Source: Prorocentrum cordatum (lineage: Eukaryota). From it: DNA of 64,000 nt. The position numbers and the translations under genes were made by a program. Below, in pieces: positions 47,401 to 64,000 of this stretch. The stretch is taken from NCBI GenBank assembly GCA_963575745.1, contig CAUYUJ010000237.1:310001-374000 (forward strand), read 5' to 3'. The notes under the pieces were generated by a model that was given only the letters and a program-made list of their open reading frames with translations, did no database searches and had not been told where the DNA came from. The stretch's first letter is position 1. The number at the start of each line of letters is the position of its first letter.

Positions 47401-50109
47401 GAGAGGCGGCACCAGCCGATCGCCGCGGCGGCTGGTGGCTGGGGGCGGCCGTTCCTGAAAAGCGGCTCGAGCCCCTCCCTCCCCTCCGCCCCGACAACTT
47501 TATTTCGGCGTCGTCGTCGCCCCTCCCCCCCCCTCTCCCTCTCCTCAGCAGCCCAGCGCGCTGCCCCCTCCGCCCCGCTTGCTGTATTTCGGCGTTGTGT
47601 CGACATGTGTCGATATGCGTCGCTCCCCAGCACCCCAGCGCACCGCCCCCTCCGCCCCGACGGCTTCATTTCGGCTTCGACGTCGTCGTCGCCCCCTCCC
47701 CCCCCCCCTCTTTCTCCTCGCAGCCCAGCGCCTGCCCCCTCCGCCCCGACCACTTTATTTCGGCGTCGTCGTCGCCCCCCCTGGCCCTTTTCCCCAGCAG
47801 CCCAGCGCACCGCCCTCTCCGCCCCGACCACTTTATTTCGGCGTCGTCGTCGCCCTATTTCGGCGTTGTGTCGACATGCGTCGCTTTCCCCAGCAGCCCA
47901 GCGCACCGCCCTCGCCGCCCCGACCACTTTATTTCGGCGTCGTCGTCGCCCTATTTCGGCGTTGTGTCGACATGTGTCGCTATGTGTCGCTCCCCAGCAC
48001 CCCAGCGCACCGCCCCCTCCGCCCCGACGACTTTATTTCGGCGTCGTCGTCGCCCCCCCCCTCTCCCTCTCCTCAGCAGCCCAGCGCGCTGCCCCCTCCG
48101 CCCCGACCACTTTATTCGGCGTTGTGTCGACATGTGTCGCTATGTGTCGCTCCCCAGCACCGCACCGCCCCCTCCGCCCCGACGACTTTATTTCGGCGTC
48201 GTCGTCGCCCCCCCCCCCCCCCTCTCCCTCTCCTCAGCAGCCCAGCGCGCTGCCCCCTCCGCCCCGACCGCTTTATTTCGGCGTTGTTTCGACATGCGTC
48301 GCTACGCGTCGCTCCCCAGCACCCCAGCGCGCCGCCCCCTCCGCCGCGACGACTTTATTTCGGCGTCGTCGTCGCCGCCCCCCCTTTCCTTCTCCCTCTC
48401 TTCGGCAGCCCAGTGCCGCTTGCCGCCCTTCGCCCCCGACCACTTTATTTCGGCGTCGTCGTCGCCCCCCCCCGGTCCTTTCCCCAGCAGCCCAGCGCAC
48501 CGCCCTCTCCGCCCCGACCACGGAGTCGGCGTCGCCCTATTTCGGCGTTTTGTCGACATGTGTCGCTTTCCCCAGCAGCCCAGCGCACCGCCCTCTGCCC
48601 CGACGACTTTATTTCGGCGTCGTCGTCGCCCTATTTCAGCGCGTTGTGTCGACATGTGTCGCTATGTGTCGCTCCCCAGCACCCCAGCGCACCGCCCCCT
48701 CCGCCCCGACGACTTTATTTCGGCGTCGTCGTCGCCCCCCCCCCTCTCCCTCTCCTCAGCAGCCCAGCGCGCTGCCCCCTCCGCCCCGACCACTTTATTT
48801 CGGCGTCGTCGTCGCCCCCCCTGTCCTTTTCCCCAGCAGCCCAGCGCGCCGCCCTCTCCGCCCCGACCACTTTATTTCGGCGTCGTCGTCGCCCCCCCCC
48901 ACCCCCCTCTCCCCAGCAGCCCAGCGCGCCGCCCCCTTCGCCCCGACCACTTTCTTCTCTTGCACAGCTGTGCTCTAGAGCTCGAACCTCTTTATTTTCG
49001 TTCGTTCGTCGTCGTCCCCGGCCCCAAGTCCGGCCCCGACCCTGGACCCAACCTCCCCACCCCGCCCTGGCCTCAGCCCCCCTCGCCCTGGCCCTGGCCC
49101 TGGACCCAGCCCCCCCCCCACCTGGCCCTGGCCCCAGTCCCCCTCGCCCTCGACCCTTTACTTTCGCTCGTCGTCGCCCCTGGTCCGGTCCTGGCCCTGG
49201 ACCCAACCTCCCCCCTGGTCCTGGCCCCAGCTCCCCTCGCCCCGCTGGCCCGGCCTGGACCCAGCCTCCCCCCCGCCGGCCCTGTCCCCAGTCCCCCTCG
49301 CCCTGGACCCTTTATTTTCGTTTGTCGTTGTCCCTCTGGTCCCGGCCCTGGACCCAACCTCCCCACCAGGCCCTGGCCCCAGCCCCCGTCGCCCCGCTGA
49401 CCCTGGCCCTGGACCCAGCCTCCCCCCCGGCCCTGGCCCCAGCCCACCTCGCCCTGGCAACACTTTATTTGCGCTCGTCGTCGTCTCTGGCAGCTGGTCC
49501 GGTCCTGGCCCTGGACCCAACCCCCCCCCCTTGCTGGACCCTTTGTTTTCGTTCGTCGTCCCTGGTCCGACTCTGGCCCTGGACCCAACCTCCCCACCTG
49601 GTCCTGGCCCCGTGGAGCCCCCCTCGCCCCGCTGGGTCCCTGGTCCGGTCCTGACCCTGGACCCAACCTCCCCCCCTGGTCCTGGCCCCAGCTCCCCTTG
49701 CCCCGCTGGCCCAGGGCCTGGACCCAGCCTCCCCCCCGCCGGCCCTGTCCCCAGTTCCCCTCGCCCTGGACCCTTTATTTTCGTTTGTCGTCGTCCCTCT
49801 GGTCCTGGCCCTGGACCCTGCCTCCTCCCCTGGCCCTGGCCCCCCGCCCCCCTTGCCCCGCTGGCCCTGGCCCTGGACCCAGCCTCCCCCCCCCGGCCCT
49901 GGCCCCAGTCCCCCTCGCCCTGGACCATTTGTTATCTTGCGCAGCTGTGTTCTAGAGCTCGGACCTCTTTATTTTCGCTCGTCGTCGTCGTTCGTTCGTC
50001 GTTCGTCCTCCCCCCGTCGGCCGCAAAAATAAACTCCTGGAGGAAGGGGGCGAAAGCCTCCTGTCTCTCGCGGCTCCTTAGTGCAAGAGCCAGGGCACGC
50101 GTGCCACTT

Positions 50110-50739
50110 GTTAGTCTTATTTTTCTTCGTAACATTATTATTATTCGTCTTCGCATTCTTATCTGTATTATTATTACTACTACTACTTATATCATTATTA
50201 TTATTAGTATTAGTATTATTATTGCCATTATCATTATTATGATTATAACAATAGTAATAATAAGTTTTTCTAGTATTAGTACAAATATTATTATTATTAT
50301 TAGTGTTGTTATTATTAATATTATTACTATTATTATTAGTAGTATTATTATGATGAGTAATAGTATTATGATTGTTCGTAATAGTATAATTCGTATAATT
50401 ATTTTTGGTGTTATTATTCGTATTACTCGTATTATTCTTCTTCGTCTTATTAATATTATCATTGTTATCCTTATTGGTATGAGTTGTGTTCGTCTTCTTC
50501 TTATTATTATTCTTATTAGTAGTATTCGTAGTATTAGTATTATTCTTCTTATTATTATCAATAATAACAATATTAGCATTATTACTTATAGTACTATTAC
50601 TATTAGCTGTGTTCTTCTTCCTCTTCTTCCTCGTCCTCCTCCCTCCTCCTCCTCATTCTCCTCTTCCCCCTCCTCCCCCTCCTCCTCCTCCTCCTCCGCC
50701 TCCTCCTCCCCCTCAGCAGCAGCATCATACATCATCATT

Positions 50740-50777
<38 letters not shown>

Positions 50778-50795
50778 CATCATCATAATCATCAG

Positions 50796-50833
<38 letters not shown>

Positions 50834-51227
50834 GCAGCATCATCATCATCATCATCATCATCATCAGCGTCGTCGTCATTATCATCATAATCCGCCTCAG
50901 CATCATCATCATCATCACCACCATCATCATCATCATCAGCATCAGCAATCACAAGCATCATCATCATCATCATGTCATCGTCATCGTCATCATCATCATC
51001 ATCATCTCATTCATCATCATCATCATCATCATCATCGTCATCCAGCATCAGCATCATCAGCATCAGTCATCACATCAGCATCATCATCATCCAGCCATCA
51101 TCATCATCATCATCATCATCACATCATCATCATCATCGTCATCAGCATCAGCATCATCAGCATCATCAGCATCAGCATCATCATCATCAGCAGCAACATC
51201 AGCATCATCATCATCATCAGCATCACC

Positions 51228-51261
<34 letters not shown>

Positions 51262-51303
51262 TCATCATCTCATCATCATCATCATCATCATATCAGCATC
51301 ATC

Positions 51304-51357
<54 letters not shown>

Positions 51358-51909
51358 AATCATCAGCCGCAGCAGCATCATCATCCTCATAGTCAGCATC
51401 ATCATCATCACCATCATCAGCACCATCATCATCAGCATCATCAGCATCAGCACCATCATCATCATCATCAGCATCATCAGCATCATCATTATCGTCGTCA
51501 CCGTCATCATCATCATCAGCATCATCAGCATCATCATCATCATCGTCATCATCATCATAAGAATCAACATCAGCAGCATCATCATCAGCATCAGCATCAT
51601 AATCATCAGCATCATCATCATCACCATCACCATCACCATCATCATCATCATCATCGTCGTCATCATCATCATCATCCTGATCATCATCAGCAGCATCATC
51701 ACCACAATCATCATCATGACCATCATCATCATCATCAGCAGCATCAGCATCATCATCATCGTAACCATCTCATCACCATCATCATCATCATCATCAGCAG
51801 CATCATCATCCACATCATCATCAGCATCAGCATCAGCATCAGCATCATCAGCATCATCAGCATCATCAGCATCAGCATCATCATCATCATCATCGTCATC
51901 ATCATCATC

Positions 51910-51952
<43 letters not shown>
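50110..51952. repeat. Degenerate (ATT)n, (CCT)n and long (CAT)n microsatellites
   Basis: Seen directly. Confidence 0.95.
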
Positions 51953-51955
<3 letters not shown>

Positions 51956-54788: not shown

Positions 54789-54843
<55 letters not shown>

Positions 54844-54889
54844 GCATCATCATCATCATCATCATCATCATCACCATCATCACCACCAC

Positions 54890-54935
<46 letters not shown>

Positions 54936-55120
54936 ATTATCACCATCATCATCAGCAGCATCAGCATCATCATCATCATCATCATCCTCATCCTCATCCT
55001 GATCCTCATCCTCATCATCACCATCATCATCAGCATCATCAGCATCATCATCAGCATCAGCATCAGCATCATCGTCATCATCATCACCATCATCCTCATC
55101 CTCATCATCATCCTCATCCG

Positions 55121-55176
<56 letters not shown>

Positions 55177-55412
55177 GCATCATCATCATCATCATCATCA
55201 TCGTCATCATCATCAGCATCATCATCTTCATCATCAGCACGAGCAGCATCATCAGCATTATCATCCCCATCATCAGCATCCCCATCATCACAACCACCAC
55301 CGCCACCACCATCATCATCATCAGCATCATCATCAGCAGCATCAGCATCAGCATGCATCAGCAGCAGCAGCATCATCATCATCAGCATCATCATCAGCAT
55401 CATCATCATCAG

Positions 55413-55443
<31 letters not shown>

Positions 55444-55554
55444 TTCATCATCAGCATCATCATCATAATCATCATGAGCCTCATCATCAGAATCATCAGC
55501 ATCAGCATCACCATCACCATCACCACCACCGTCACCATCATCGTCATTATTCTT

Positions 55555-55623
<69 letters not shown>

Positions 55624-55700
55624 GTCATGGTCCATCCGTCCGTCCGTCCGTCAGTCCATCCGTCCGTCCATACATCCATCCATCCATCCATCCATCCATC
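54789..55700. repeat. (CAT)n then (CCGT/CCAT)n microsatellite
   Basis: Seen directly. Confidence 0.95.
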
Positions 55701-55814: not shown

Positions 55815-56230
55815 AAACTGTTTCACGGATGGAAGGCGGGTCACTTTCAAAATGTGGCTCTCGACTTAGCACCGGGCACATTCGTCTTAAAAGTTTGCAG
55901 CAGCTCCCAAGATGGAGGGCGGGTAGCTTGCACAATGGGGCTCTCGCCTTGTCAGCACGCACATTCGTTGTCAAAACTGCTACAGATTCACGGATGGAGG
56001 GCGGATGGTGTTCAAATGTAGCTCTTGCTTTCGCGCCGCGAACAGCTTCGTCTTAAACGGTTACAGCAGCTTCCAAGATGGAGGGCGGGTAGCTTGCAAA
56101 ACGTGGCTATCGCCGTGGCGCCGCGCACATTCGCCTTCAGAACTAGCAACAGCTTCAAAGATGGAGGGCGCGTCCTTGTCAAAGCGGTGAGGCTCTCGCC
56201 TTTTCGCCGCGCACATTTGTCTTGTAGGTT
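55815..56230 (+). repeat. Diverged ~83-bp tandem repeat, 5 copies
   Basis: GATGGA(A/G)GGCG at 55828, 55911, 55993, 56077 and 56160. Confidence 0.85.
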
Positions 56231-57567: not shown

Positions 57568-58347
57568 ATTATCTGTACCGTTAGCGGGGGCATTACGGGA
57601 GCCGCCAGGCAGGAGGGAGAGAGAAGGGGGACGAAAGGCAAACCCCCGGAGGCCCACGAGCCCCGCCAGGGCCCGCCACCCACCGGTGCGAGCACCGGGG
57701 GTCCCCGGGACAAAGCGGCGGCCCCACGAGGGCCGAGGGCAGAGAGAGAGGAAGGGCCAACGGCTCGACTCACTCACATATCATTTTCCTCGTGACTCAC
57801 TGTCAGCCTCAAGCGAGGCTGCTGAAAGAGATCTGAGCTGGACCACAGGGCCTGGAGCCGGCGAGGATCCCAAGAGCGAATGTCGAGACATCTTACGGCC
57901 TCGAGCACGCTCGAGTCGAACGGAATCGAAACTCGGAACAGAAAAAGGGGGAGGGCGGGCTGGGCGCCTTCGGAACCAACCCCTCCCACTGCAGATAAGA
58001 CGCGTACAACTGGCAATTATCTGTACCGTTAGCGGGGGCATTACGGGAGCCGCCAGGCAGGAGGGAGAGAGAAGGGGACGAAAGGCAAACCCCCGGAGGC
58101 CCACGAGCCCCGCCAGGGCCCGCCACCCACCGGTGCGAGCACCGGGGGTCCCCGGGACAAAGCGGCGGCCCCACGAGGGCCGAGGGCAGAGAGAGAGGAA
58201 GGGCCAACGGCTCGACTCACTCACATATCATTTTCCTCGTGACTCACTGTCAGCCTCAAGCGAGGCTGCTGAAAGAGATCTGAGCTGGACCACAGGGCCT
58301 GGAGCCGGCGAGGATCCCAAGAGCGAATGTCGAGACATCTTACGGCC
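57568..58347 (-). repeat. 3' split direct repeats: B (58016-58347), 115-bp spacer A (57901-58015), B (57568-57900)
   Basis: Two ~332-bp copies that appear identical except for one G in a G-run. Confidence 0.92.
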
Positions 58348-58466
58348 AAATTGCCAATATCCCAGATCTTGGTCTTGTACAAGACGGGTGGGCGGGTTCG
58401 GGAAACTCCACAATTTGCCAATGCCTCATGACTGGTATCATATACTCTGAGCGGGCTTATGCCTAG

Positions 58467-61400
58467 TCAGGCGTTGCTCAGGCGCGCATCGGCACGCCTC
58501 GGCGCAGCCGGTGGATGTTCTTGGCCACCAGCAACGCGCGAGCTGCCAGCTCTGACGAGGCCGAGCCGCGCTTGCCTTCCAGCAGCTGCACGCCGCGGGC
58601 GACGCCCCTGGCCCCCATGACGGCGACCTGGCGGAGGAGCTTCCCGGTCTTTTCGTAGCGGGCCACCGACTTGGACGTGAGCCAACGGCCTCTCTTTTTG
58701 ATCTCCGCCAGGCTGAGCAGCTTCCGGTGGGCGGCCGTGGACGGCCCACCGTGGCGGGCTGAGTGCGGCGTGATGTTCAAGTCGGTCAGGCGGCAGCGCA
58801 CTGCCGCGTCTTTGATCTCCTTCTCGTAGCGGGGCAGCGTCAGAGGGGCCAAGAGCTTCGTGCCTTTGGGCGCCTGGCTTCTGAGGGACTGCAGCAGCTG
58901 AGGGATGAACGGCAGCCCGAGCCCTTCGAGCCCCACGACGACGGTGTCGTCGAACTCGCCTGACTTTGCCGGCTTCGCCGGCGTCGAGCTGCCTTTGGCC
59001 GCCTGCGGGGCCACAATGATGCAGGTCTGCTTGTAGCCGGCGGCGCTCGGCACGATGACGTCTTCCTTCTTCAGGTTCAGGATCTCCGAGGGCCGCGCGA
59101 ACGTGTCGTACTGCGTGAGAAACGCGAGCCCGGCGGCGGCTGCCGTGACTGTCGGCTGCCCCAGGAGGTCGAAGGCCAAGATGGCGGCGGCCTCGATCGG
59201 GCACGGGTCCTCCGACCGCGGCGGGTCGTCCTTGAGGAAGCCCTTGATGGCCCGCTGGCAGCGCGGAAGCGACCCCTTGGGCAGCGCCTTCACGAAGATG
59301 ATCGCGCACCGCAGGTTGCGGGGCGCGGAGACGTCGAGCCCTTTCAGGTACATTTCGTCGTTGATGTACTGCGCCGCCGCCTCGTCGAGGGTGTTTGTGC
59401 TCATCCTGTGCAGCTGCAGGCCTTGCTGGACCGCGTGGAGCTCGAACGCGTTGTATGCCTTGGCGTAGGTCCTGCGGGTCTCCTCCGACACGGACTGCGC
59501 CTCGACCTGCGTCAGGTCCGTGAGGGCCGGCGCCGCGGCTGCCACCGCACTCGCCGCCGCGCTCGCCCTGCGGGCGGCCCGCTCCTCGCGCTGGCCCGGC
59601 GCGGCTGCCGCAGGGCGCCGGGCGGGCGTCGCGAGGGCGGTCGCGGGGCGGCGCGGCTGCGTCGGAGCCTCCACGTCTGGCTGCGCCGCGGCCAGCACCA
59701 GAGCGTCGGGGGTCGACGCCTGGTCCGCTGCTGGTGCCGCCGCTGGTCGCCGTCGCGGAGGACGGTCTGGCTCGGTGTCGGCTGTCCGCGCCCTCTTGGC
59801 CTCCCGAGAAGCCTGGGTTGAGACATCCAGGGCCGATGTGCCGCCAGCTGGCGGGACAACTGACTCCCCAGCTGCCCACGGCGTGCTCCCACCCAAAGAC
59901 CATTCGGCACGGGCATCGAGGCGCACAAACCCCGGCAAGCGGCCTCCGAGAGCGACTGGAGGCCTCCAGGGCGGTCCACCTCCAGGCAGGGACGCCATGG
60001 CCAAGCGCCGCGCCTGGAGGAGCGGCCAGCTGGGCGCAGTGCGCCACCGCCCGGCACAGGCGCGGCGGGTACTTGCCCGCGAGCTCGGTGAGCCACACAC
60101 TGCAGAATCTGTTGTCGTTTGGGATCGTTACCTTTCCTTGCAAGATGATGTGAGGCCCAGAACACGAACACCGAAGCTGAATATATTCCTCAAGACGCGG
60201 TAGCGTGAAAGCGAAGCGAGTGGTCTTCCTATACGGTGTGCCGAACCTACACATGTCGAAATCAACGAACTTGGCCTCCAGCGACGACAGGGCCTGACGA
60301 AGGGGCTCCCATTCCCAGAGGGCCGAAGTTGCAGGGTTCTCGAGTGTGATGTAGATGAGGTGTTTGCTGAGGGCTCTCTTGATGGCCTTCAGGAACCTCA
60401 CGGTGACCTCTGCGCACTCGCGCCCCGAGACGGCCGCTGCAGACTGCGATGACCCCGTAGACCTCGCCCGCGAAGCCCACGTGCAGGGAGTCCCAAAGTG
60501 GATCCACCAAACACGCCCCTGAGCAATCCACTGGAGGATCAGGCTGATGATGCGCGGGTTGAGAAGGTCGAGGTGGGCACCGTTCCTTTTCTCAAACGGG
60601 GCTGCGACCTCGAGCCCGGTGTGTAGCACAGCACCACTGAGATGCCCGTGACCAGCGAACAGTTCGAGAAAGAAACGCCTCCTAGGCCGCGCCGCCGCGG
60701 GCGCCTTGCGCTCCGCCGCATGGCCGGGACGAGTCACACCGACAGCTCCCGGAGAGACAGCGTCTGCGCCACAAGCAGGAAACTCCCCCGAGCGATCCTG
60801 ACCGCCCTCGGTCCGCCTCAGCAGCAAACTCGCTACGGCGGCGCAGCGCTGCCGCGCCCGCTGCCGCTGTGACCCGCTCGGCACGAAGGTCTCGCCCGGC
60901 ATGAGCTCGCCCCGGTTGGCGCGGCGGGAGTCGAAGTCGGAGACACACCGCGCCGACTCCACGTGCCGCCGCCTCCAGTCAACGCCCGCTGCCCACTGCC
61001 ACGCACACGACTGTCGGCAGAGAGCGTTCAGGCCGAAGTCGGAGGCTCGGCCCCTTTCAGTGGCCAGCACGTCCGCCATGTTGTCACCCAGCGAGACCAC
61101 GATCGAGTCTTCGGCCGCCCGACAGACGGCCGCGCGTCGCAGCCCCATCAGCGAGGTCCGGCACTCGAGGATGTGGATCGGAAGTCTTGTGCTGCTCCCT
61201 GACCACGCCCCGGCCACAACCAGCCGCCAGCGCCCCGGGTGCGTGACCGTCTGCGGTACGGCCGGGATGCCCGTCTTGCTGAAGGACATCGGCCTCGGCT
61301 GCCGCTCCACGCACATCAGGTCGGCAGCCGCAGGCCGCTGATCTGGGGCCGCGGGGCCAAGCATCCCGTCTGCCCAAGCCGAGCCGATGCCGGCCCACCC

Positions 61401-63300
61401 AGCGGCGGGCTCACTGGGGGCCTCGCCGCCGGCCGACACCCCGCCAGGCTGCAGAACCTCGCGGAACCTCCAGCGCTCCTTCCAGCGCGCGAGCCCTGCT
61501 ACCTCCCGAGGCGCAGCTGGGGCCTCGTGGAGGGCGTAGCCGTCGCCGGAAGAGTCCGAGCAGAACAGGTGTCTAGAAAAACTGCGATTCAGGTCGACGT
61601 CCACCGTCAGCACGAGCGAGCGACAGATCCACAACTCGTCCCATACAGTCGACGAGAGCGGACGTACGTCCCCCCCGTGATCGAAGGCGAATCGGTACGC
61701 GAACTGCAAGCAGCTGAGTCCCGTAGGACGAAGCCCAAAGTGATGACACAGGTGCCCCAGAACAACACGAAGCGCGTCGCCAGAGCAGCGCCCCAAGCGA
61801 AGCAGCCGCCCCAGCGCGAGCCACAATCGCCAAGACCGCCGCGCGGTGTGGCGCAGGCGGCGGCGGCCGCCATCAAGGACCATACCGAGGAACTCGAAGT
61901 CCCGCTCGCCGTCGACGTGGTCGCGGAGGACGAGGCCCCGCTCTGCCAGAAGACGGAGCACCGTGCTGAACACCTCGCGACCTTCCTGAACCCCCATCGC
62001 CAACATATTGACATTATCGACGTACGGGGCCATGGCAGGGGCCAAGGGATGCAAAGTCGCTGGCCGCTGACGGTCCCCAACCAAGGTCGTCGGCAGCTGG
62101 TGGTGCTCAAGCGCCTGCCGCATCACGTCGCTGATCGTCTCGTTGCAGAAGTAGAGCGCCCAGCTCCAGCCCATGGCCATGCCCAGGAAGCAGGCCTCGA
62201 GACGTTCGTGAGCGTCCACCTGGGAGCGGCCACCGGCCCGCTCGTCATACACCTCGGTGAGAGTCGTTCCGAAGTCGGTGGCGATCTCGGCCGCCGTGCT
62301 GATGAAGCCCAGGCCGAAGTAGCTGGCCATGGTCTCGCACTTGAACTGGTAGAACCCGTCGGTCAGGTCCACACTGAACCCGCACAGCTCGGTGTCGCCG
62401 CCGCCCGCGGCCGGCGTCACCGAGACGCCGGCTGCCCTCAGCTCAGCCCCCTCGATCGCCACGGCCTCCGGCGAAGTCGAAAGCCGGGCGAGGGCGCTGG
62501 GCGCGGCCAGCCGCGAGAGCGGCGGCCGCTTGCAGAGCTTGTTGGTCCACCGCGCGTCGAGCACCAGCCGGAGCATGTTGTTCTTCTTCTTGACGAAGAA
62601 GCACCCAACCCGACTGTGGACCCGACGCCGCCAGGTGAGCAGACCGCTGCCCGACAAGGCCGACAAAAACACAATCATGTTGTGCCGTGACCCTTTGAGA
62701 ACCGGGTCCCAGTACGGCTTGCCTCTAAGGGCTCCGCTGTCCACGTCGGCGGCGAGCTCGGCGTCCGACTTCAAAATGTGGGTGGCTGGGTCGAGGATGA
62801 ACTCGGCAGCCGTCGCTGAAGTAATGGATGATACTTCCTTCGGCTGCAGGTCGCCCCGAGCCACACGGAGTCGAGAGATATCATAGGTGCCCAGCGCGGC
62901 ACCGCCAGTCAAGGTGCACAAGTCATCTGAGTGGAGGATGTCGGACAGCGCGGCCGACTCGCTCTCCAGCGGCAGATCCTGAAGCACGGGATCCAGGGCC
63001 GCGGAGGCGCGCTGCAAGGCCCGGCGCTGCCAGGCCGAGCACGCATCGAAATCGAGTTCACTGCCACGAAGCCCATGAAGAAGTGGACGTCGAGGCTGCG
63101 CCCGAGACAGGCTGGAGAGGGCCACGGCGTAGTCGCCGAGGAGCCGCTCCCGCAAGGGCGTGCCCTGCACCAGCCTCGAGATCGGCTGCCGAGGCAGCGG
63201 AGACTCCGCCCCCGCCAAACGGACAGGGAACGGTAGCGTGTCCCGAAGAGAAAGGGCCGCCGGACGTTGGGACCACACGCCGGCGGGACCGCAGCACGGC
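58467..63300 (-). CDS. Pol polyprotein: RT (~62620-61850), RNase H (~61570-60920), C5 DNA-cytosine methyltransferase (~60680-60030); frame open from 63920, start uncertain
   Basis: CFFVKKK..LRLVLDAR, VDLTDGFYQ, MAMGWSWA, YVDN, FLG; CSDSS..G, HILE, LGDN, SDFDSR; LELFAGHG, GTPC, LENP, MCRFGTPYRK, KYPPRLC. Confidence 0.88.
58478..60100 (-). CDS. Tyrosine recombinase (true start uncertain; catalytic domain about 59500-58480)
   Basis: FARPSEIL (R), KSGEFD (K), HSARHGG (HxxR), RGRW (W), ARYEK (Y). Confidence 0.92.
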   Translation of the reverse strand: MCGSPSSRASTRRACAGRWRTAPSWPLLQARRLAMASLPGGGPPWRPPVALGGRLPGFVRLDARAEWSLGGSTPWAAGESVVPPAGGTSALDVSTQASREAKRARTADTEPDRPPRRRPAAAPAADQASTPDALVLAAAQPDVEAPTQPRRPATALATPARRPAAAAPGQREERAARRASAAASAVAAAAPALTDLTQVEAQSVSEETRRTYAKAYNAFELHAVQQGLQLHRMSTNTLDEAAAQYINDEMYLKGLDVSAPRNLRCAIIFVKALPKGSLPRCQRAIKGFLKDDPPRSEDPCPIEAAAILAFDLLGQPTVTAAAAGLAFLTQYDTFARPSEILNLKKEDVIVPSAAGYKQTCIIVAPQAAKGSSTPAKPAKSGEFDDTVVVGLEGLGLPFIPQLLQSLRSQAPKGTKLLAPLTLPRYEKEIKDAAVRCRLTDLNITPHSARHGGPSTAAHRKLLSLAEIKKRGRWLTSKSVARYEKTGKLLRQVAVMGARGVARGVQLLEGKRGSASSELAARALLVAKNIHRLRRGVPMRA

Positions 63301-63301
63301 G

Positions 63302-64000
63302 TTAGCCGTCGCCGTCCTTGCCGTGCTTCTTCTTGTCCTTTTCCTTCCGCTTGGCCTCGAGCTCCTCCCGGAGCAGCCTGTTCTGCTTGAGGATGCGGGC
63401 CTCGACCTCGGCCTGCTGCGCGAAGTAGGTCGTGAACTGCTGCGTCGCCACTCCCCCCTTCTCGTCCTGGTTGTGCTCGATCATCTTGTGCAGGCCGTCG
63501 AAGCACGGGGACTTCGGATTGACCTTCACCGCCCGCTCGATCATCACGATCCGTCGGGCCGCCAGCTCCAGCGAGCCGCAGTTGGTTGGATCGAGCCCGT
63601 CGTACCCGACCGCCAGCCCCAGGATCTGCAGCAGCATCCGGTGCTCCCAGGCGACGGCGCTCTCCGCGTGCACCCCGGACTCGCGGACCCAGTGCACGTG
63701 GCACGTCGCCGTCGAGAGCCCAAGCGCGTGGATGCCCTGGAGCAGCTCGACGACCGCGCGTGGCCCCGGGTGGGGCCACGACGGCATCTTGGTGAGCTCG
63801 GCGGGCCTGAAGTTCTGCATGGCCAGGCCGAGCGGCTGGGCACCAGCAGCAGCGTCGTGCGACGCCGAGGACGCCAGCCGAGGGTCCCGGCCTGCGCCTG
63901 AGTGCTTGTCCACCAGCCACGCGCCCACCTCGCTGTTCGGCACGAGCTCGACGGCCAGCCAGCGCCCCGGCTGGCCAACCAGCGCCAGCCCGACTGAACC
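63302..64000 (-). CDS. Gag-like ORF of the YR retrotransposon (5'-truncated by the window edge)
   Basis: The frame is open to position 64000 and lies upstream of pol. It ends in a charged helix (ILKQNRLLREELEAKRKEK). Function is inferred from position. Confidence 0.7.
   Translation of the reverse strand, partial: GSVGLALVGQPGRWLAVELVPNSEVGAWLVDKHSGAGRDPRLASSASHDAAAGAQPLGLAMQNFRPAELTKMPSWPHPGPRAVVELLQGIHALGLSTATCHVHWVRESGVHAESAVAWEHRMLLQILGLAVGYDGLDPTNCGSLELAARRIVMIERAVKVNPKSPCFDGLHKMIEHNQDEKGGVATQQFTTYFAQQAEVEARILKQNRLLREELEAKRKEKDKKKHGKDGDG

What the first reader, a model, noticed from the sequence alone, without database searches (positions are those of the whole stretch)
60030..62620. Intact YR retrotransposon carrying its own C5 DNA methyltransferase fused to RT-RNase H
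Seen: one stop-free frame holds RT, RNase H and then a domain with C5-MTase motifs in the expected order: I (ELFAGxG), IV (GTPC, catalytic Cys), VI (ENP), VIII-like (FGTPYRK) and X-like (KYPPRLC). All YR catalytic residues are present in the overlapping ORF. Known: classical DIRS elements carry a Dam-like adenine MTase here, and cytosine-DNMT-bearing retrotransposons have been reported in Symbiodinium (de Mendoza et al. 2018), so the class itself is not new. Inference: this copy is young and possibly active, and may methylate its own circular cDNA intermediate before integration. Its combination with split direct repeats and a YVDN RT may define an undescribed lineage.
Basis: partly seen in the sequence, partly recalled or inferred. 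Interest (0 to 1): 0.85.

Follow-up and report, generated by a model that had tools for sequence, protein, structure and literature searches.

The report
DIRS-like retrotransposon carrying compact cytosine methyltransferase
This is a real tyrosine-recombinase (DIRS-like) retrotransposon of a dinoflagellate whose polymerase protein ends in a small, very divergent cytosine-5 DNA methyltransferase domain, a kind of element already described in coral-symbiont dinoflagellates and here apparently found in a different dinoflagellate lineage.

Summary
On the minus strand, one frame (63305-59880) encodes a reverse transcriptase (YVDN), an RNase H (D-E-D-D) and a 225-residue domain with C5-methyltransferase motifs. 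An overlapping ORF (59998-58478) encodes a tyrosine recombinase, followed by B-A-B repeats (333/115/333 nt; B copies 99.7% identical).

Pfam does not see the methyltransferase, RT or RNase H in this copy. The methyltransferase call rests on:
- a family profile that hits DNMT2 (E 3.9e-4);
- one relative that passes PF00145's cutoff;
- a pLDDT 92.8 model whose best matches are all C5-DNMTs (DNMT3A Z 13.4, 208 residues);
- Pro-Cys, Glu-Asn-Pro and SAM-binding acidic residues kept in over 95% of about 270 relatives.

The architecture (RT-RNase H-DNMT Pol, separate recombinase ORF, A-coding-B-A-B repeats) matches SymbioDIRS-Dnmt3 of de Mendoza et al. 2018, who showed de novo CG methylation and proposed cDNA self-methylation. 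The kind and the mechanism are therefore published.

What is new is modest. The closest named relatives are from Prorocentrum, not Symbiodiniaceae. The domain family is large (2275 representative clusters) and almost invisible to PF00145. YVDN is the family norm.

"Intact and active" is unproven. The 5' end lies off the window, Pol has no upstream ATG and no nearby stop, and no RNA evidence was found.

The parts
63302..64000 (-). 3' part of a gag-like ORF1 (232 codons seen, cut by the window end; stop TAA at 63304-63302)
   Evidence: No Pfam family. GC3 is 92%. The function is inferred from its position only.
59880..63305 (-). Pol coding region (RT-RNase H-DNMT), in the -1 frame relative to ORF1. 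It has no in-frame ATG before the conserved FPVRL N-terminal motif, and the frame stays open to 58467.
   Evidence: Homologues reach 76% identity, and 6 of 9 hits are named Prorocentrum cordatum.
61614..62720 (-). Reverse transcriptase (fingers FFVKKK 62606, motif A Asp 62369, motif C YVDN 62024-62013)
   Evidence: Model pLDDT 86.3. Foldseek best hits are MMLV RT at 9.3e-14, then HERV-K, CaMV, foamy virus, Ty3 and HIV-1 RTs. Y, D and N of motif C are kept in 53/53, 53/53 and 51/53 sequences.
60918..61601 (-). RNase H with a disordered insertion of about 48 residues (catalytic D 61556, E 61478, D 61085, D 60938)
   Evidence: Foldseek alignments of 600-720 columns to RT chains that include RNase H. 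D/E/D/D are kept in 53/53, 53/53, 52/53 and 51/52 sequences.
60015..60677 (-). Compact C5 cytosine methyltransferase domain: motif I ELFAGHG 60665-60645, acidic motif II 60593-60591, motif III Asp 60569-60567, GTPC 60494-60483, ENP 60341-60333, YRK 60233-60225, motif X KYPPRLC 60074-60054
58478..59998 (-). Tyrosine recombinase ORF (ATG 59998; frame open from 60127, overlapping the end of Pol). Catalytic residues: R in ARPSE 59101-59084, K in PAKSGE 58972-58955, HSARH 58768-58745, GRW 58693-58676, Y in ARYEK 58666-58649.
   Evidence: PF00589 is matched weakly: E 0.024 for this copy, and 4 of 7 family members with a best E of 3.6e-4. Nearest ESM Atlas clusters carry PF00589 (0.97-0.99). A profile search of PDB sequences found nothing.
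58016..58347 (-). Repeat B, first copy (333 nt)
   Evidence: 99.7% identical to 57568-57900.
57901..58015 (-). 115-nt spacer between the B copies, the presumed A2 repeat of an A-coding-B-A-B element
   Evidence: Inferred from the published layout (PMC5890265, Fig. 1e legend and peer-review file). Its partner A1 would lie beyond 64000 and was not seen.
57568..57900 (-). Repeat B, second copy; presumed 3' end of the element

Best explanation
This is a DIRS-like (tyrosine-recombinase) retrotransposon of a dinoflagellate, lying on the minus strand and cut at its 5' end by the window. Its parts in order are: a gag-like ORF1; a Pol with reverse transcriptase, RNase H and a compact (about 225-residue) cytosine-5 methyltransferase; an overlapping tyrosine-recombinase ORF; and B-A-B terminal repeats. 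It is of the same kind as SymbioDIRS-Dnmt3.

Shown here: the domain identities, the conservation of the catalytic residues, the gene order and the repeats.

Inferred: the RNA is copied to cDNA by the RT and RNase H. The split repeats allow a circular or closed double-stranded cDNA to form, and the recombinase integrates it. The Pol-borne methyltransferase uses S-adenosyl-methionine and its Pro-Cys nucleophile to methylate cytosines, probably at CG, on the new cDNA. The copy would then enter a heavily CG-methylated genome already looking like self DNA.
For: Methyltransferase domain:
- The family profile A1 hits DNMT2 4h0n_A at E 3.9e-4, aligning LELF-G with LELYSGIGG and GTPC with PPCQ.
- Relative P0237 (E 9e-49 to the family profile) scores 24.7 bits on PF00145, above its cutoff of 22.
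- The model has pLDDT 92.8.
- In Foldseek, all 40 listed hits (ranks 1-50) are DNMT3A/B/C or MET1; best E 5.2e-7.
- In the Foldseek-independent VIA search of 48,161 chains, the top 9 are all C5-MTases (DNMT3A Z 12.7, rmsd 3.9, 198 aligned). Generic Rossmann SDRs start at Z 10.5 with about 157 aligned.
- In the VIA second look, DNMT3A scores Z 13.4 with 208 aligned, spanning model residues 11-241 against DNMT3A 629-912.
- The top ESM Atlas cluster is auto-named a cytosine-5 methyltransferase (0.97).
- Conservation over 287 domains: E20 232/235, G24 234/236, D/E44 247/251, D52 225/259, P79 261/271, C80 267/271, E128 265/272, N129 270/272, K166 261/265, Y218 235/239.

RT and RNase H.
Recombinase.
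Repeats.

Same kind as published: the Pol-embedded DNMT, the separate recombinase ORF, the A-coding-B-A-B repeats and the existence of two domain orders (PMC5890265 section 6). Here 72 long relatives have the domain at the C-terminus and 55 at the N-terminus, of 138. The family includes S. kawagutii and Cladocopium proteins. That paper shows de novo CG methylation in yeast by two SymbioDIRS-Dnmt3 domains (section 10, passages read).

Selection: the listed differences to a 98-99% identical sister copy are 22 synonymous to 6 non-synonymous in Pol and 6 to 2 in the recombinase.
Against: - PF00145 does not match this copy at E<=10.
- PF00145 is seen in only 5 of 35 family members (best E 0.054), in 1 of 50 N-terminal-class relatives (E 0.12), and in none of four S. 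kawagutii members at E<=0.1. Identity with the PF00145-defined SymbioDIRS-Dnmt3 set is therefore not proven.
- Motif I keeps only one glycine. Motif VIII is Y-R/K-K rather than the RxR recalled for canonical enzymes. The region between motifs VIII and X is only about 45 residues, so DNA target recognition is unclear.
- Fold Z-scores for DNMT3, M.HhaI and a prophage MTase lie within about 1 unit, so a Dnmt3 affinity is not established.
- CpG observed/expected in the element is 1.01, so there is no deamination footprint.
- No activity, expression or circular-junction data exist.
- Pol has no ATG and no timely stop.
Confidence: 0.72

Rival explanations
1. The domain has the C5-methyltransferase fold, but its substrate is not double-stranded cDNA. 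It might methylate RNA (the element's own transcript, or a tRNA, as Dnmt2 does) or the RNA/DNA hybrid. Alternatively it might be a non-catalytic DNA-binding or oligomerisation module, like DNMT3L.
For: The only significant sequence hit in PDB is Dnmt2, a tRNA methyltransferase (E 3.9e-4). The target-recognition region is very short, and motif VIII departs from the canonical form. DNMT3L also appears among the fold matches (Z 9.4). De Mendoza et al. raise RNA methylation for SymbioLINE-Dnmt (PMC5890265 discussion, passage read).
Against: A pseudo-enzyme would not keep Pro-Cys, Glu-Asn-Pro and both SAM-binding acidic residues in over 95% of about 270 diverged relatives. The Dnmt2 hit covers motifs I-IV, which all C5-MTases share. 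The top structural matches are DNA enzymes. Two SymbioDIRS-Dnmt3 domains methylate DNA in yeast (PMC5890265 section 10).
Confidence: 0.15
2. This particular copy is a recent but dead insertion. It cannot make Pol on its own because it lacks a start codon and a proper stop, and it is not transcribed.
For: There is no in-frame ATG between the ORF1 stop and the conserved FPVRL motif, whereas predicted homologues start with Met 10-40 residues upstream of it. No canonical slippery heptamer is visible at the ORF1 end (read by eye). The Pol frame runs about 470 codons past its conserved end. In Symbiodinium most such elements are silent (PMC5890265 section 7).
Against: - All three ORFs are uninterrupted and all catalytic residues are present.
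- The B repeats differ at 1 of 333 positions.
- Pol lies at -1 to ORF1, as in many gag-pol frameshift systems.
- In GC3-rich DNA a missing stop in an overlapping frame is expected.
- Some relatives even carry the recombinase fused in frame to Pol (P0008, P0183, P0153), so the expression strategy varies across the family.
Confidence: 0.4
3. The methyltransferase module was not captured from a host Dnmt3 gene. It derives from a small viral cytosine methyltransferase.
For: The best TM-scores of any search are to viral proteins of about 210-220 residues, the same compact size: A0A0A0RJX0 (TM 0.61/0.69, E 4.5e-8) and the Tetraselmis virus 1 putative cytosine MTase (0.59/0.65). The best PDB TM-score is 0.57. 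The nearest Pfam-bearing ESM cluster is 96% viral, but its score of 0.88 makes it only a lead. De Mendoza et al. leave a viral origin open (PMC5890265 section 6).
Against: DNMT3A/B/C fill the top 24 rows of the VIA second look and align end to end. The published tree puts SymbioDIRS DNMTs inside eukaryotic Dnmt3 (PMC5890265 section 6). TM-scores favour size-matched targets. No phylogeny was made here.
Confidence: 0.25
4. The motifs are a chance resemblance, and the domain is an unrelated Rossmann-fold protein or a Dam-like N6-adenine methyltransferase as in classical DIRS elements.
For: There is no PF00145 hit for this copy. Short-chain dehydrogenases score Z 9-10.5 in the fold search.
Against: No Dam or N6-MTase family appears at E<=10 either. 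C5-MTases outrank every other fold and align about 200 residues, against about 157 for the dehydrogenases. The profile-to-DNMT2 alignment puts motif I on motif I and PC on PC. A close relative passes PF00145's cutoff.
Confidence: 0.02

Closest known systems
SymbioDIRS-Dnmt3 (de Mendoza et al. 2018, Nat Commun 9:1341, PMC5890265)
   Same: It is a DIRS-like element with the DNMT in the Pol ORF alongside RT and RNase H, a separate tyrosine-recombinase ORF, and A-coding-B-A-B repeats. The RT is too divergent for Pfam. Two domain orders coexist in the family. The family seen here includes S. kawagutii and Cladocopium proteins.
   Different: The closest named relatives of this copy are Prorocentrum cordatum proteins, whereas the published elements are described only in Symbiodiniaceae (2026 preprint 10.64898/2026.05.21.726589, passage read). 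The published set was defined by PF00145, which misses this copy and nearly all its relatives. No direct sequence comparison was possible, because the Supplementary Information file could not be read.
Classical DIRS1-group and PAT-like elements (Goodwin & Poulter 2004, cited in PMC5890265; not read)
   Same: The RT-RNase H-MT order in one ORF, an overlapping tyrosine-recombinase ORF, and split direct repeats (PAT-like layout; recalled).
   Different: Their MT domain is Dam-like and acts on N6-adenine, which is structurally unrelated. Here the fold and motifs are cytosine-5 type, and no Dam or N6 Pfam family matches.
DNMT3A/3B/3C catalytic domain
   Same: It is the best structural match: Z 13.4, 208 aligned residues, spanning DNMT3A 629-912. 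The order of motifs [10 protein letters not shown] and X is shared. It has a small target-recognition region and an F-x-G-x-A type motif I (the DNMT3 sequence is recalled, not fetched).
   Different: Sequence identity is 12-16%. The domain is about 60 residues shorter. It has ENP instead of ENV, YRK instead of the arginine motif, and extra conserved Cys158, Cys185 and His191. It has no PWWP or ADD domains.
KnitGypsy-Dnmt3 and EpiLTRs (PMC5890265; preprint 10.64898/2026.05.21.726589)
   Same: A cytosine methyltransferase embedded in a retrotransposon Pol.
   Different: These are Gypsy/LTR elements with a DDE integrase, in streptophytes, chlorophytes and Euglena. They represent independent acquisitions.
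Small viral C5 methyltransferases (e.g. Tetraselmis virus 1 putative cytosine DNA methyltransferase, BFVD)
   Same: The size (about 210-220 residues) and the highest TM-scores (0.59-0.69).
   Different: These are stand-alone viral genes with 16-18% identity. The relationship was not tested by phylogeny.

Membership tests
C5 cytosine methyltransferase superfamily (DNMT / PF00145) | SAM-dependent methyltransferase fold with C5-MTase topology over the whole catalytic domain | tested here: met
   The model has pLDDT 92.8. The top 9 of 48,161 chains are all C5-MTases, at Z 12.7-10.7 with about 200 aligned. DNMT3A scores Z 13.4, rmsd 4.1, 208 aligned. Foldseek best E is 5.2e-7.
C5 cytosine methyltransferase superfamily (DNMT / PF00145) | Motif IV Pro-Cys catalytic nucleophile | tested here: met
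   GTPC lies at 60494-60483. P is kept in 261/271 relatives and C in 267/271. It aligns to PPCQ of DNMT2.
C5 cytosine methyltransferase superfamily (DNMT / PF00145) | Motif VI Glu-Asn-Val type glutamate | tested here: met
   ENP lies at 60341-60333. E is kept in 265/272, N in 270/272 and P in 269/272.
C5 cytosine methyltransferase superfamily (DNMT / PF00145) | SAM-binding motifs I (FxGxG), II (acidic) and III (Asp) | tested here: met
   F22 is kept in 214/235, G24 in 234/236, D/E44 in 247/251 and D52 in 225/259. The second glycine is not conserved (G26 85/236).
C5 cytosine methyltransferase superfamily (DNMT / PF00145) | Motif VIII arginines and a target-recognition domain | tested here: inconclusive
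   The sequence is Y-R/K-K with K166 kept in 261/265. Only about 45 residues lie between motifs VIII and X, including conserved C158, C185 and H191. No residue-level structural alignment was available.
C5 cytosine methyltransferase superfamily (DNMT / PF00145) | Score above the Pfam PF00145 gathering cutoff | tested here: not met
   This copy has no hit at E<=10. One relative, P0237, passes (24.7 bits against a cutoff of 22). Elsewhere 5/35 and 1/50 relatives give only weak hits.
C5 cytosine methyltransferase superfamily (DNMT / PF00145) | Transfers a methyl group to cytosine C5 | not testable with these tools
   This needs expression followed by bisulfite or EM-seq.
SymbioDIRS-Dnmt3 | DNMT in the same ORF as RT and RNase H | tested here: met
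   A single frame runs 63305-59880. The domains are supported.
SymbioDIRS-Dnmt3 | Separate tyrosine-recombinase ORF | tested here: met
   ORF 59998-58478 lies in another frame.
SymbioDIRS-Dnmt3 | A-coding-B-A-B repeat layout | tested here: inconclusive
   B-115 nt-B is seen at the 3' end. A1 would lie beyond 64000, outside the window.
SymbioDIRS-Dnmt3 | DNMT clusters within eukaryotic Dnmt3 | tested here: inconclusive
   DNMT3 chains rank first, but within about 1 Z of M.HhaI and a prophage MTase. Small viral MTases give higher TM-scores. No tree was built because no reference sequences were at hand.
SymbioDIRS-Dnmt3 | Sequence relationship to the published Symbiodinium elements | tested here: inconclusive
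   Family members include Skav gene models and a Cladocopium goreaui protein. Those four Skav ids are not in the readable supplements, and none matches PF00145 at E<=0.1.
DIRS order (tyrosine-recombinase retrotransposons) | RT plus RNase H of retroelement type | tested here: met
   Foldseek gives E 9.3e-14 to MMLV RT, with 600-720 aligned columns including RNase H. The catalytic residues are invariant.
DIRS order (tyrosine-recombinase retrotransposons) | Tyrosine recombinase with the R-K-H-R-(H/W)-Y catalytic set instead of a DDE integrase | tested here: met
   All six positions are present and conserved in the 6-7 homologues. PF00589 is weak (best E 3.6e-4, 4 of 7). A PDB profile search found nothing.
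DIRS1-group Dam-like MT domain | N6-adenine (Dam-like) methyltransferase downstream of RNase H | tested here: not met
   No Dam or N6 family appears at E<=10. The fold and motifs are of the C5 type.

The most novel reading that the evidence does not exclude
The compact, PF00145-invisible C5-methyltransferase domain may be an old, near-universal module of dinoflagellate DIRS-like elements. It is present in both the RT-RNase H-MT and the MT-RT-RNase H architectures, and in both Prorocentrales and Symbiodiniaceae.

If so, many elements counted as 'DIRS lacking DNMT' would in fact carry it. The two architectures would reflect domain shuffling of one ancestral acquisition, possibly from a small viral methyltransferase, rather than two independent captures of host Dnmt3 within the Symbiodinium lineage.
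Probability: 0.3. Interest if true: 0.6.

Novelty: new member of a known kind. Interest (0 to 1): 0.4.

Why it matters
Retrotransposons that carry their own cytosine methyltransferase are rare. They matter for understanding how mobile elements adapt to, and may shape, host methylomes, and dinoflagellate genomes are almost fully CG-methylated.

This copy adds three things to the published picture:
- The DIRS-DNMT design exists in a genome whose nearest named relatives are Prorocentrum, outside the Symbiodiniaceae where it was described.
- The domain belongs to a very large family (2275 representative clusters at 50% identity) that the standard PF00145 screen misses almost entirely. Surveys based on that profile therefore probably undercount such elements.
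- The family offers a minimal, roughly 225-residue DNMT scaffold with an unusual short target-recognition region, which could be tested biochemically.

It does not change the known mechanism.

Tried and rejected
- Pfam on the raw frames (P0001, P0004, P0005) gave no RT, RNase H, DNMT or Dam family at E<=1 or E<=10.
- Single-sequence phmmer against PDB gave only chance hits at E>0.6.
- Profiles of the whole Pol against PDB sequences gave only weak RT and DNMT2 hits at E 0.1-0.5. A hit to 2jpi_A (E 6.2e-4) aligns to that chain's first residues, which open with a run of histidines. I treat it as spurious.
- The recombinase profile against PDB sequences found nothing at E<=10.
- The genome search 'own' reported that no genome is held for this window, so copy number and the 5' end of the element could not be examined.
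- The search of earlier findings, by place and by sequence, returned nothing.
- The look-up of sequencing runs listed no RNA holder. This says nothing about expression.
- Read laying used contigs only. It gave no starts, ends or circular junctions. The few 'skip' joints at 62176-62344 come from short contigs of diverged copies in the conserved RT core, and I do not interpret them.
- The four S. kawagutii gene ids were not found in the readable supplements of PMC5890265. Its Supplementary Information file (MOESM1, with Supplementary Figs 3 and 4) is too large to be read here, so the published DNMT alignment could not be compared.
- Literature: searching 'Prorocentrum' with 'DIRS' found 4 papers, none relevant by title or abstract start. 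Searching 'SymbioDIRS' found only the 2018 paper and the 2026 preprint.
- CpG observed/expected is 1.01 in the element, so there is no depletion signal. The paper reports the same for SymbioDIRS.

Full report
**What is there.** The last 6.4 kb of the window (57568-64000) is one mobile element on the minus strand, and it runs off the window end.

A stop-to-stop scan shows three overlapping reading frames:
- a 232-codon ORF cut by the window end (64000-63302);
- a frame with no stop from 63998 to 58467 (1843 codons);
- a 549-codon ORF (60127-58478).

They are FFVKKK at 62606, YVDN at 62024, DSS at 61556, ELFAGHG at 60665-60645, GTPC at 60494-60483, ENP at 60341-60333, PYRK at 60236-60225 and KYPPRLC at 60074-60054.

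Only about 63305-59880 of the long frame is conserved protein. Elsewhere that frame lies out of phase over the two flanking genes. Their third codon positions are 92% and 86% G+C, with 4-6% T, so the absence of stops there is a by-product of composition and not evidence of coding. The tail of the frame matches no protein, whereas the recombinase frame does.

Pfam finds no DNA_methylase, Dam-like, RT or RNase H family in this copy, even at E<=10. Single-sequence phmmer against PDB finds nothing useful.

An exhaustive HMMER search with the 241-residue domain finds 2275 representative clusters at E<=1e-3, 567 at <=1e-10 and 41 at <=1e-30. So this is a large family without a Pfam home.

The evidence that it is a C5-methyltransferase is as follows:
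- A profile of 35 members (A1) hits DNMT2 (4h0n_A) at E 3.9e-4. The alignment places the family's LELF-G on LELYSGIGG and GTPC on PPCQ.
- Five of the 35 members give weak PF00145 hits (best E 0.054).
- One clear relative, P0237 (E 9e-49 to the family profile), scores 24.7 bits on PF00145, above the curated cutoff of 22.
- AlphaFold2 with that alignment gives a confident model (pLDDT 92.8, pTM 0.88).
- In Foldseek against PDB, all 40 listed hits (ranks 1-50) are DNMT3A/B/C or plant MET1; best E 5.2e-7, TM 0.38-0.57.
- The Foldseek-independent VIA search of 48,161 chains puts nine C5-methyltransferases first. These are DNMT3A (Z 12.7, rmsd 3.9, 198 aligned), a prophage MTase (12.5), DNMT3B (12.4), M.HhaI (11.8), DIM2, Dnmt2, M.MpeI, MET1 and DNMT1 (10.7). 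Generic Rossmann dehydrogenases follow from Z 10.5 down, with only about 157 aligned residues.
- The VIA second look aligns model residues 11-241 to DNMT3A 629-912, at Z 13.4 with 208 residues aligned.
- The nearest ESM Atlas cluster is auto-named a cytosine-5 methyltransferase (0.97).

| Position | Kept in |
|---|---|
| Motif I: E20 | 232/235 |
| Motif I: F22 | 214/235 |
| Motif I: G24 | 234/236 |
| Acidic residue after strand 2 (D/E44) | 247/251 |
| D52 | 225/259 |
| Motif IV: P79 | 261/271 |
| Motif IV: C80 | 267/271 |
| Motif VI: E128 | 265/272 |
| Motif VI: N129 | 270/272 |
| Motif VI: P130 | 269/272 |
| K166 | 261/265 |
| Y218, in a GxYPPxLC motif | 235/239 |

The GxYPPxLC motif resembles the GN-VPPPLA motif X of canonical enzymes; that resemblance is recalled, not fetched.

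There are departures from canonical enzymes:
- only one glycine is conserved in motif I;
- motif VI reads ENP rather than ENV;
- motif VIII reads Y-R/K-K rather than the arginine motif;
- only about 45 residues lie between motifs VIII and X, and they hold conserved Cys158 (262/268), Cys185 (250/256) and His191 (193/251).

That last cluster could be a small metal site, but this was not tested.

**The rest of the element.** RT and RNase H are also invisible to Pfam in this copy. A 677-residue model built with 53 relatives (pLDDT 86.3) matches retroviral and LTR-element RTs that include RNase H. These are MMLV at 9.3e-14, then HERV-K, CaMV, foamy virus, Ty3 and HIV-1, over 600-720 aligned columns.

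In the 53-sequence alignment, the motif A Asp is kept in 53/53. Motif C is Y 53/53, V 50/53, D 53/53 and N 51/53. The RNase H D-E-D-D residues are kept in 53/53, 53/53, 52/53 and 51/52. So YVDN, with Asn where almost all RTs have the second Asp, is the family norm and not a defect of this copy.

The recombinase ORF starts at ATG 59998, which aligns with the Met of a Prorocentrum homologue. It carries ARPSE, PAKSGE, HSARH, GRW and ARY. PF00589 support is weak: E 0.024 for this copy, and 4 of 7 members with a best E of 3.6e-4. The nearest ESM clusters carry PF00589. A PDB profile search found nothing.

Downstream lie two 333-nt direct repeats, 58016-58347 and 57568-57900. They are 99.7% identical and separated by 115 nt.

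**Comparison with what is known.** De Mendoza et al. 2018 (PMC5890265) is the key reference. I read sections 6, 7 and 15, passages of sections 10 and 11, and passages of the peer-review file. The paper describes SymbioDIRS-Dnmt3 as follows:
- it is a DIRS-like element with the DNMT in the Pol ORF together with RT and RNase H;
- a separate ORF encodes the tyrosine recombinase;
- the repeats are laid out 'A-coding region-B-A-B';
- the RT is too divergent for Pfam;
- two structures with different domain order coexist;
- two cloned domains methylate CG de novo in yeast;

The present element fits each structural point that can be seen in the window.

The family also shows the two domain orders. Of 138 proteins of 800 residues or more that carry the domain (this copy included), 72 have it at the C-terminus, 55 at the N-terminus and 11 elsewhere. 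Named members include four S. kawagutii gene models and a Cladocopium goreaui protein.

So both the kind and the proposed mechanism are published.

**What is not in print, as far as I could search.** The closest named relatives of Pol (6 of 9 hits, up to 57% identity) and of the recombinase (60%) are Prorocentrum cordatum proteins. A 2026 preprint from the same group still lists TE-borne DNMTs of dinoflagellates only for Symbiodiniaceae (10.64898/2026.05.21.726589, passage read). A search for 'Prorocentrum' with 'DIRS' and one for 'SymbioDIRS' found nothing further.

Second, PF00145, the profile used to define the published set (section 15), misses this family almost entirely. It gives no hit for this copy, none for the four S. 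kawagutii members at E<=0.1, and 1 of 50 in the N-terminal class at E 0.12.

I therefore cannot show that this family is the same set as SymbioDIRS-Dnmt3. It might instead include the elements that the paper counted as 'DIRS lacking DNMTs'. The Supplementary Information file, which holds the published DNMT alignment, could not be read here. More distant RT relatives without the domain do exist (P0013-P0015).

**Origin.** DNMT3 chains rank first among solved structures, but within about one Z unit of bacterial enzymes. The best TM-scores overall go to viral methyltransferases of the same small size, at 0.61/0.69 and 0.59/0.65, the latter from Tetraselmis virus 1. A host Dnmt3 origin, as published, remains the more likely reading. 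A viral origin is not excluded.

**Is this copy young and active?**

In favour:
- All three ORFs are uninterrupted, and all catalytic residues are present.
- The B repeats differ at 1 of 333 positions.
- A public DNA run holds contigs 98-99% identical to the element. A depth peak of 85 falls over the RT core at 62004-62227, consistent with many related copies.
- Of the 36 best-supported differences to that sister copy, 22 of 28 in Pol and 6 of 8 in the recombinase are synonymous. A further 115 differences were not shown.

Against, or open:
- The 5' end, and hence the A1 repeat, lies outside the window.
- Pol lies at -1 to ORF1. It has no in-frame ATG before its conserved N-terminal motif, whereas predicted homologues start with Met there.
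- I saw no canonical slippery heptamer at the ORF1 end (by eye).
- The Pol frame has no stop for about 470 codons after its conserved end.
- No RNA run was listed.
- CpG observed/expected is 1.01, so there is no deamination footprint. The paper reports the same for SymbioDIRS.

**Verdict.** The finding is real and was correctly read as a C5-methyltransferase-bearing tyrosine-recombinase retrotransposon, but it is a new member of a published kind. Its modest added value lies in the host lineage, in the size and Pfam-invisibility of the domain family, and in the conserved YVDN motif.

Noticed in passing
window 62024-62013 (minus strand): RT motif C is YVDN, with Asn in place of the second catalytic Asp of YxDD. 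This is the norm in the family (N in 51 of 53 aligned relatives, D in 1), so a proliferating retroelement family appears to use a Y-x-D-N active site.
   Followed up: partly
window 58467-63998 (minus strand): This 1843-codon stop-free frame spans three genes. Outside about 63305-59880 it lies out of phase over GC3-rich genes (GC3 92% and 86%, T3 4-6%), so its length is a composition effect.
   Followed up: yes
window 63200-63310 (minus strand): Pol is in the -1 frame relative to ORF1 (stop TAA at 63304-63302). It has no in-frame ATG before the conserved FPVRL motif, while predicted homologues begin with Met 10-40 residues upstream of that motif. How Pol is expressed is unknown.
   Followed up: partly
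window 60251-60150 (minus strand; domain residues 158-191): Cys158 (262/268), Cys185 (250/256) and His191 (193/251) are conserved in the short region where canonical enzymes have the target-recognition domain. They may form a small metal-binding site.
   Followed up: no
proteins P0008, P0009, P0168, P0183, P0153 (database relatives): In these relatives the tyrosine recombinase lies in the same predicted protein, downstream of the methyltransferase. Either Pol and the recombinase are fused in frame in some family members, or the gene models bridge a frameshift.
   Followed up: no
family of P0214-P0283 (database relatives): A sister class of about 950-1020-residue Pol proteins has the methyltransferase at the N-terminus (55 of 138 long relatives). 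Nine of 50 scanned also give weak hits to the Pfam AKAP95 family around residues 416-551 (best E 4.4e-4). This may be a zinc-finger-like segment.
   Followed up: no
window 62004-62227: In coded run X1, summed contig depth is 85 over the RT core against about 10 elsewhere on the element, and many contigs break there. This is consistent with many diverged copies sharing this segment.
   Followed up: partly
window 50723-51954 and 54789-55628: Two very long trinucleotide arrays occur here: (CAT)n with about 410 units and (ATC)n with about 280 units. The first explains the drop in G+C to 38.5% at 50-52 kb.
   Followed up: no
window 48006-49930 and 55828-56223: C-rich tandem repeats with periods of 161, 88, 80 and 154 nt, and an 83-nt tandem array of about 4.7 units, lie just beside the element.
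   Followed up: no
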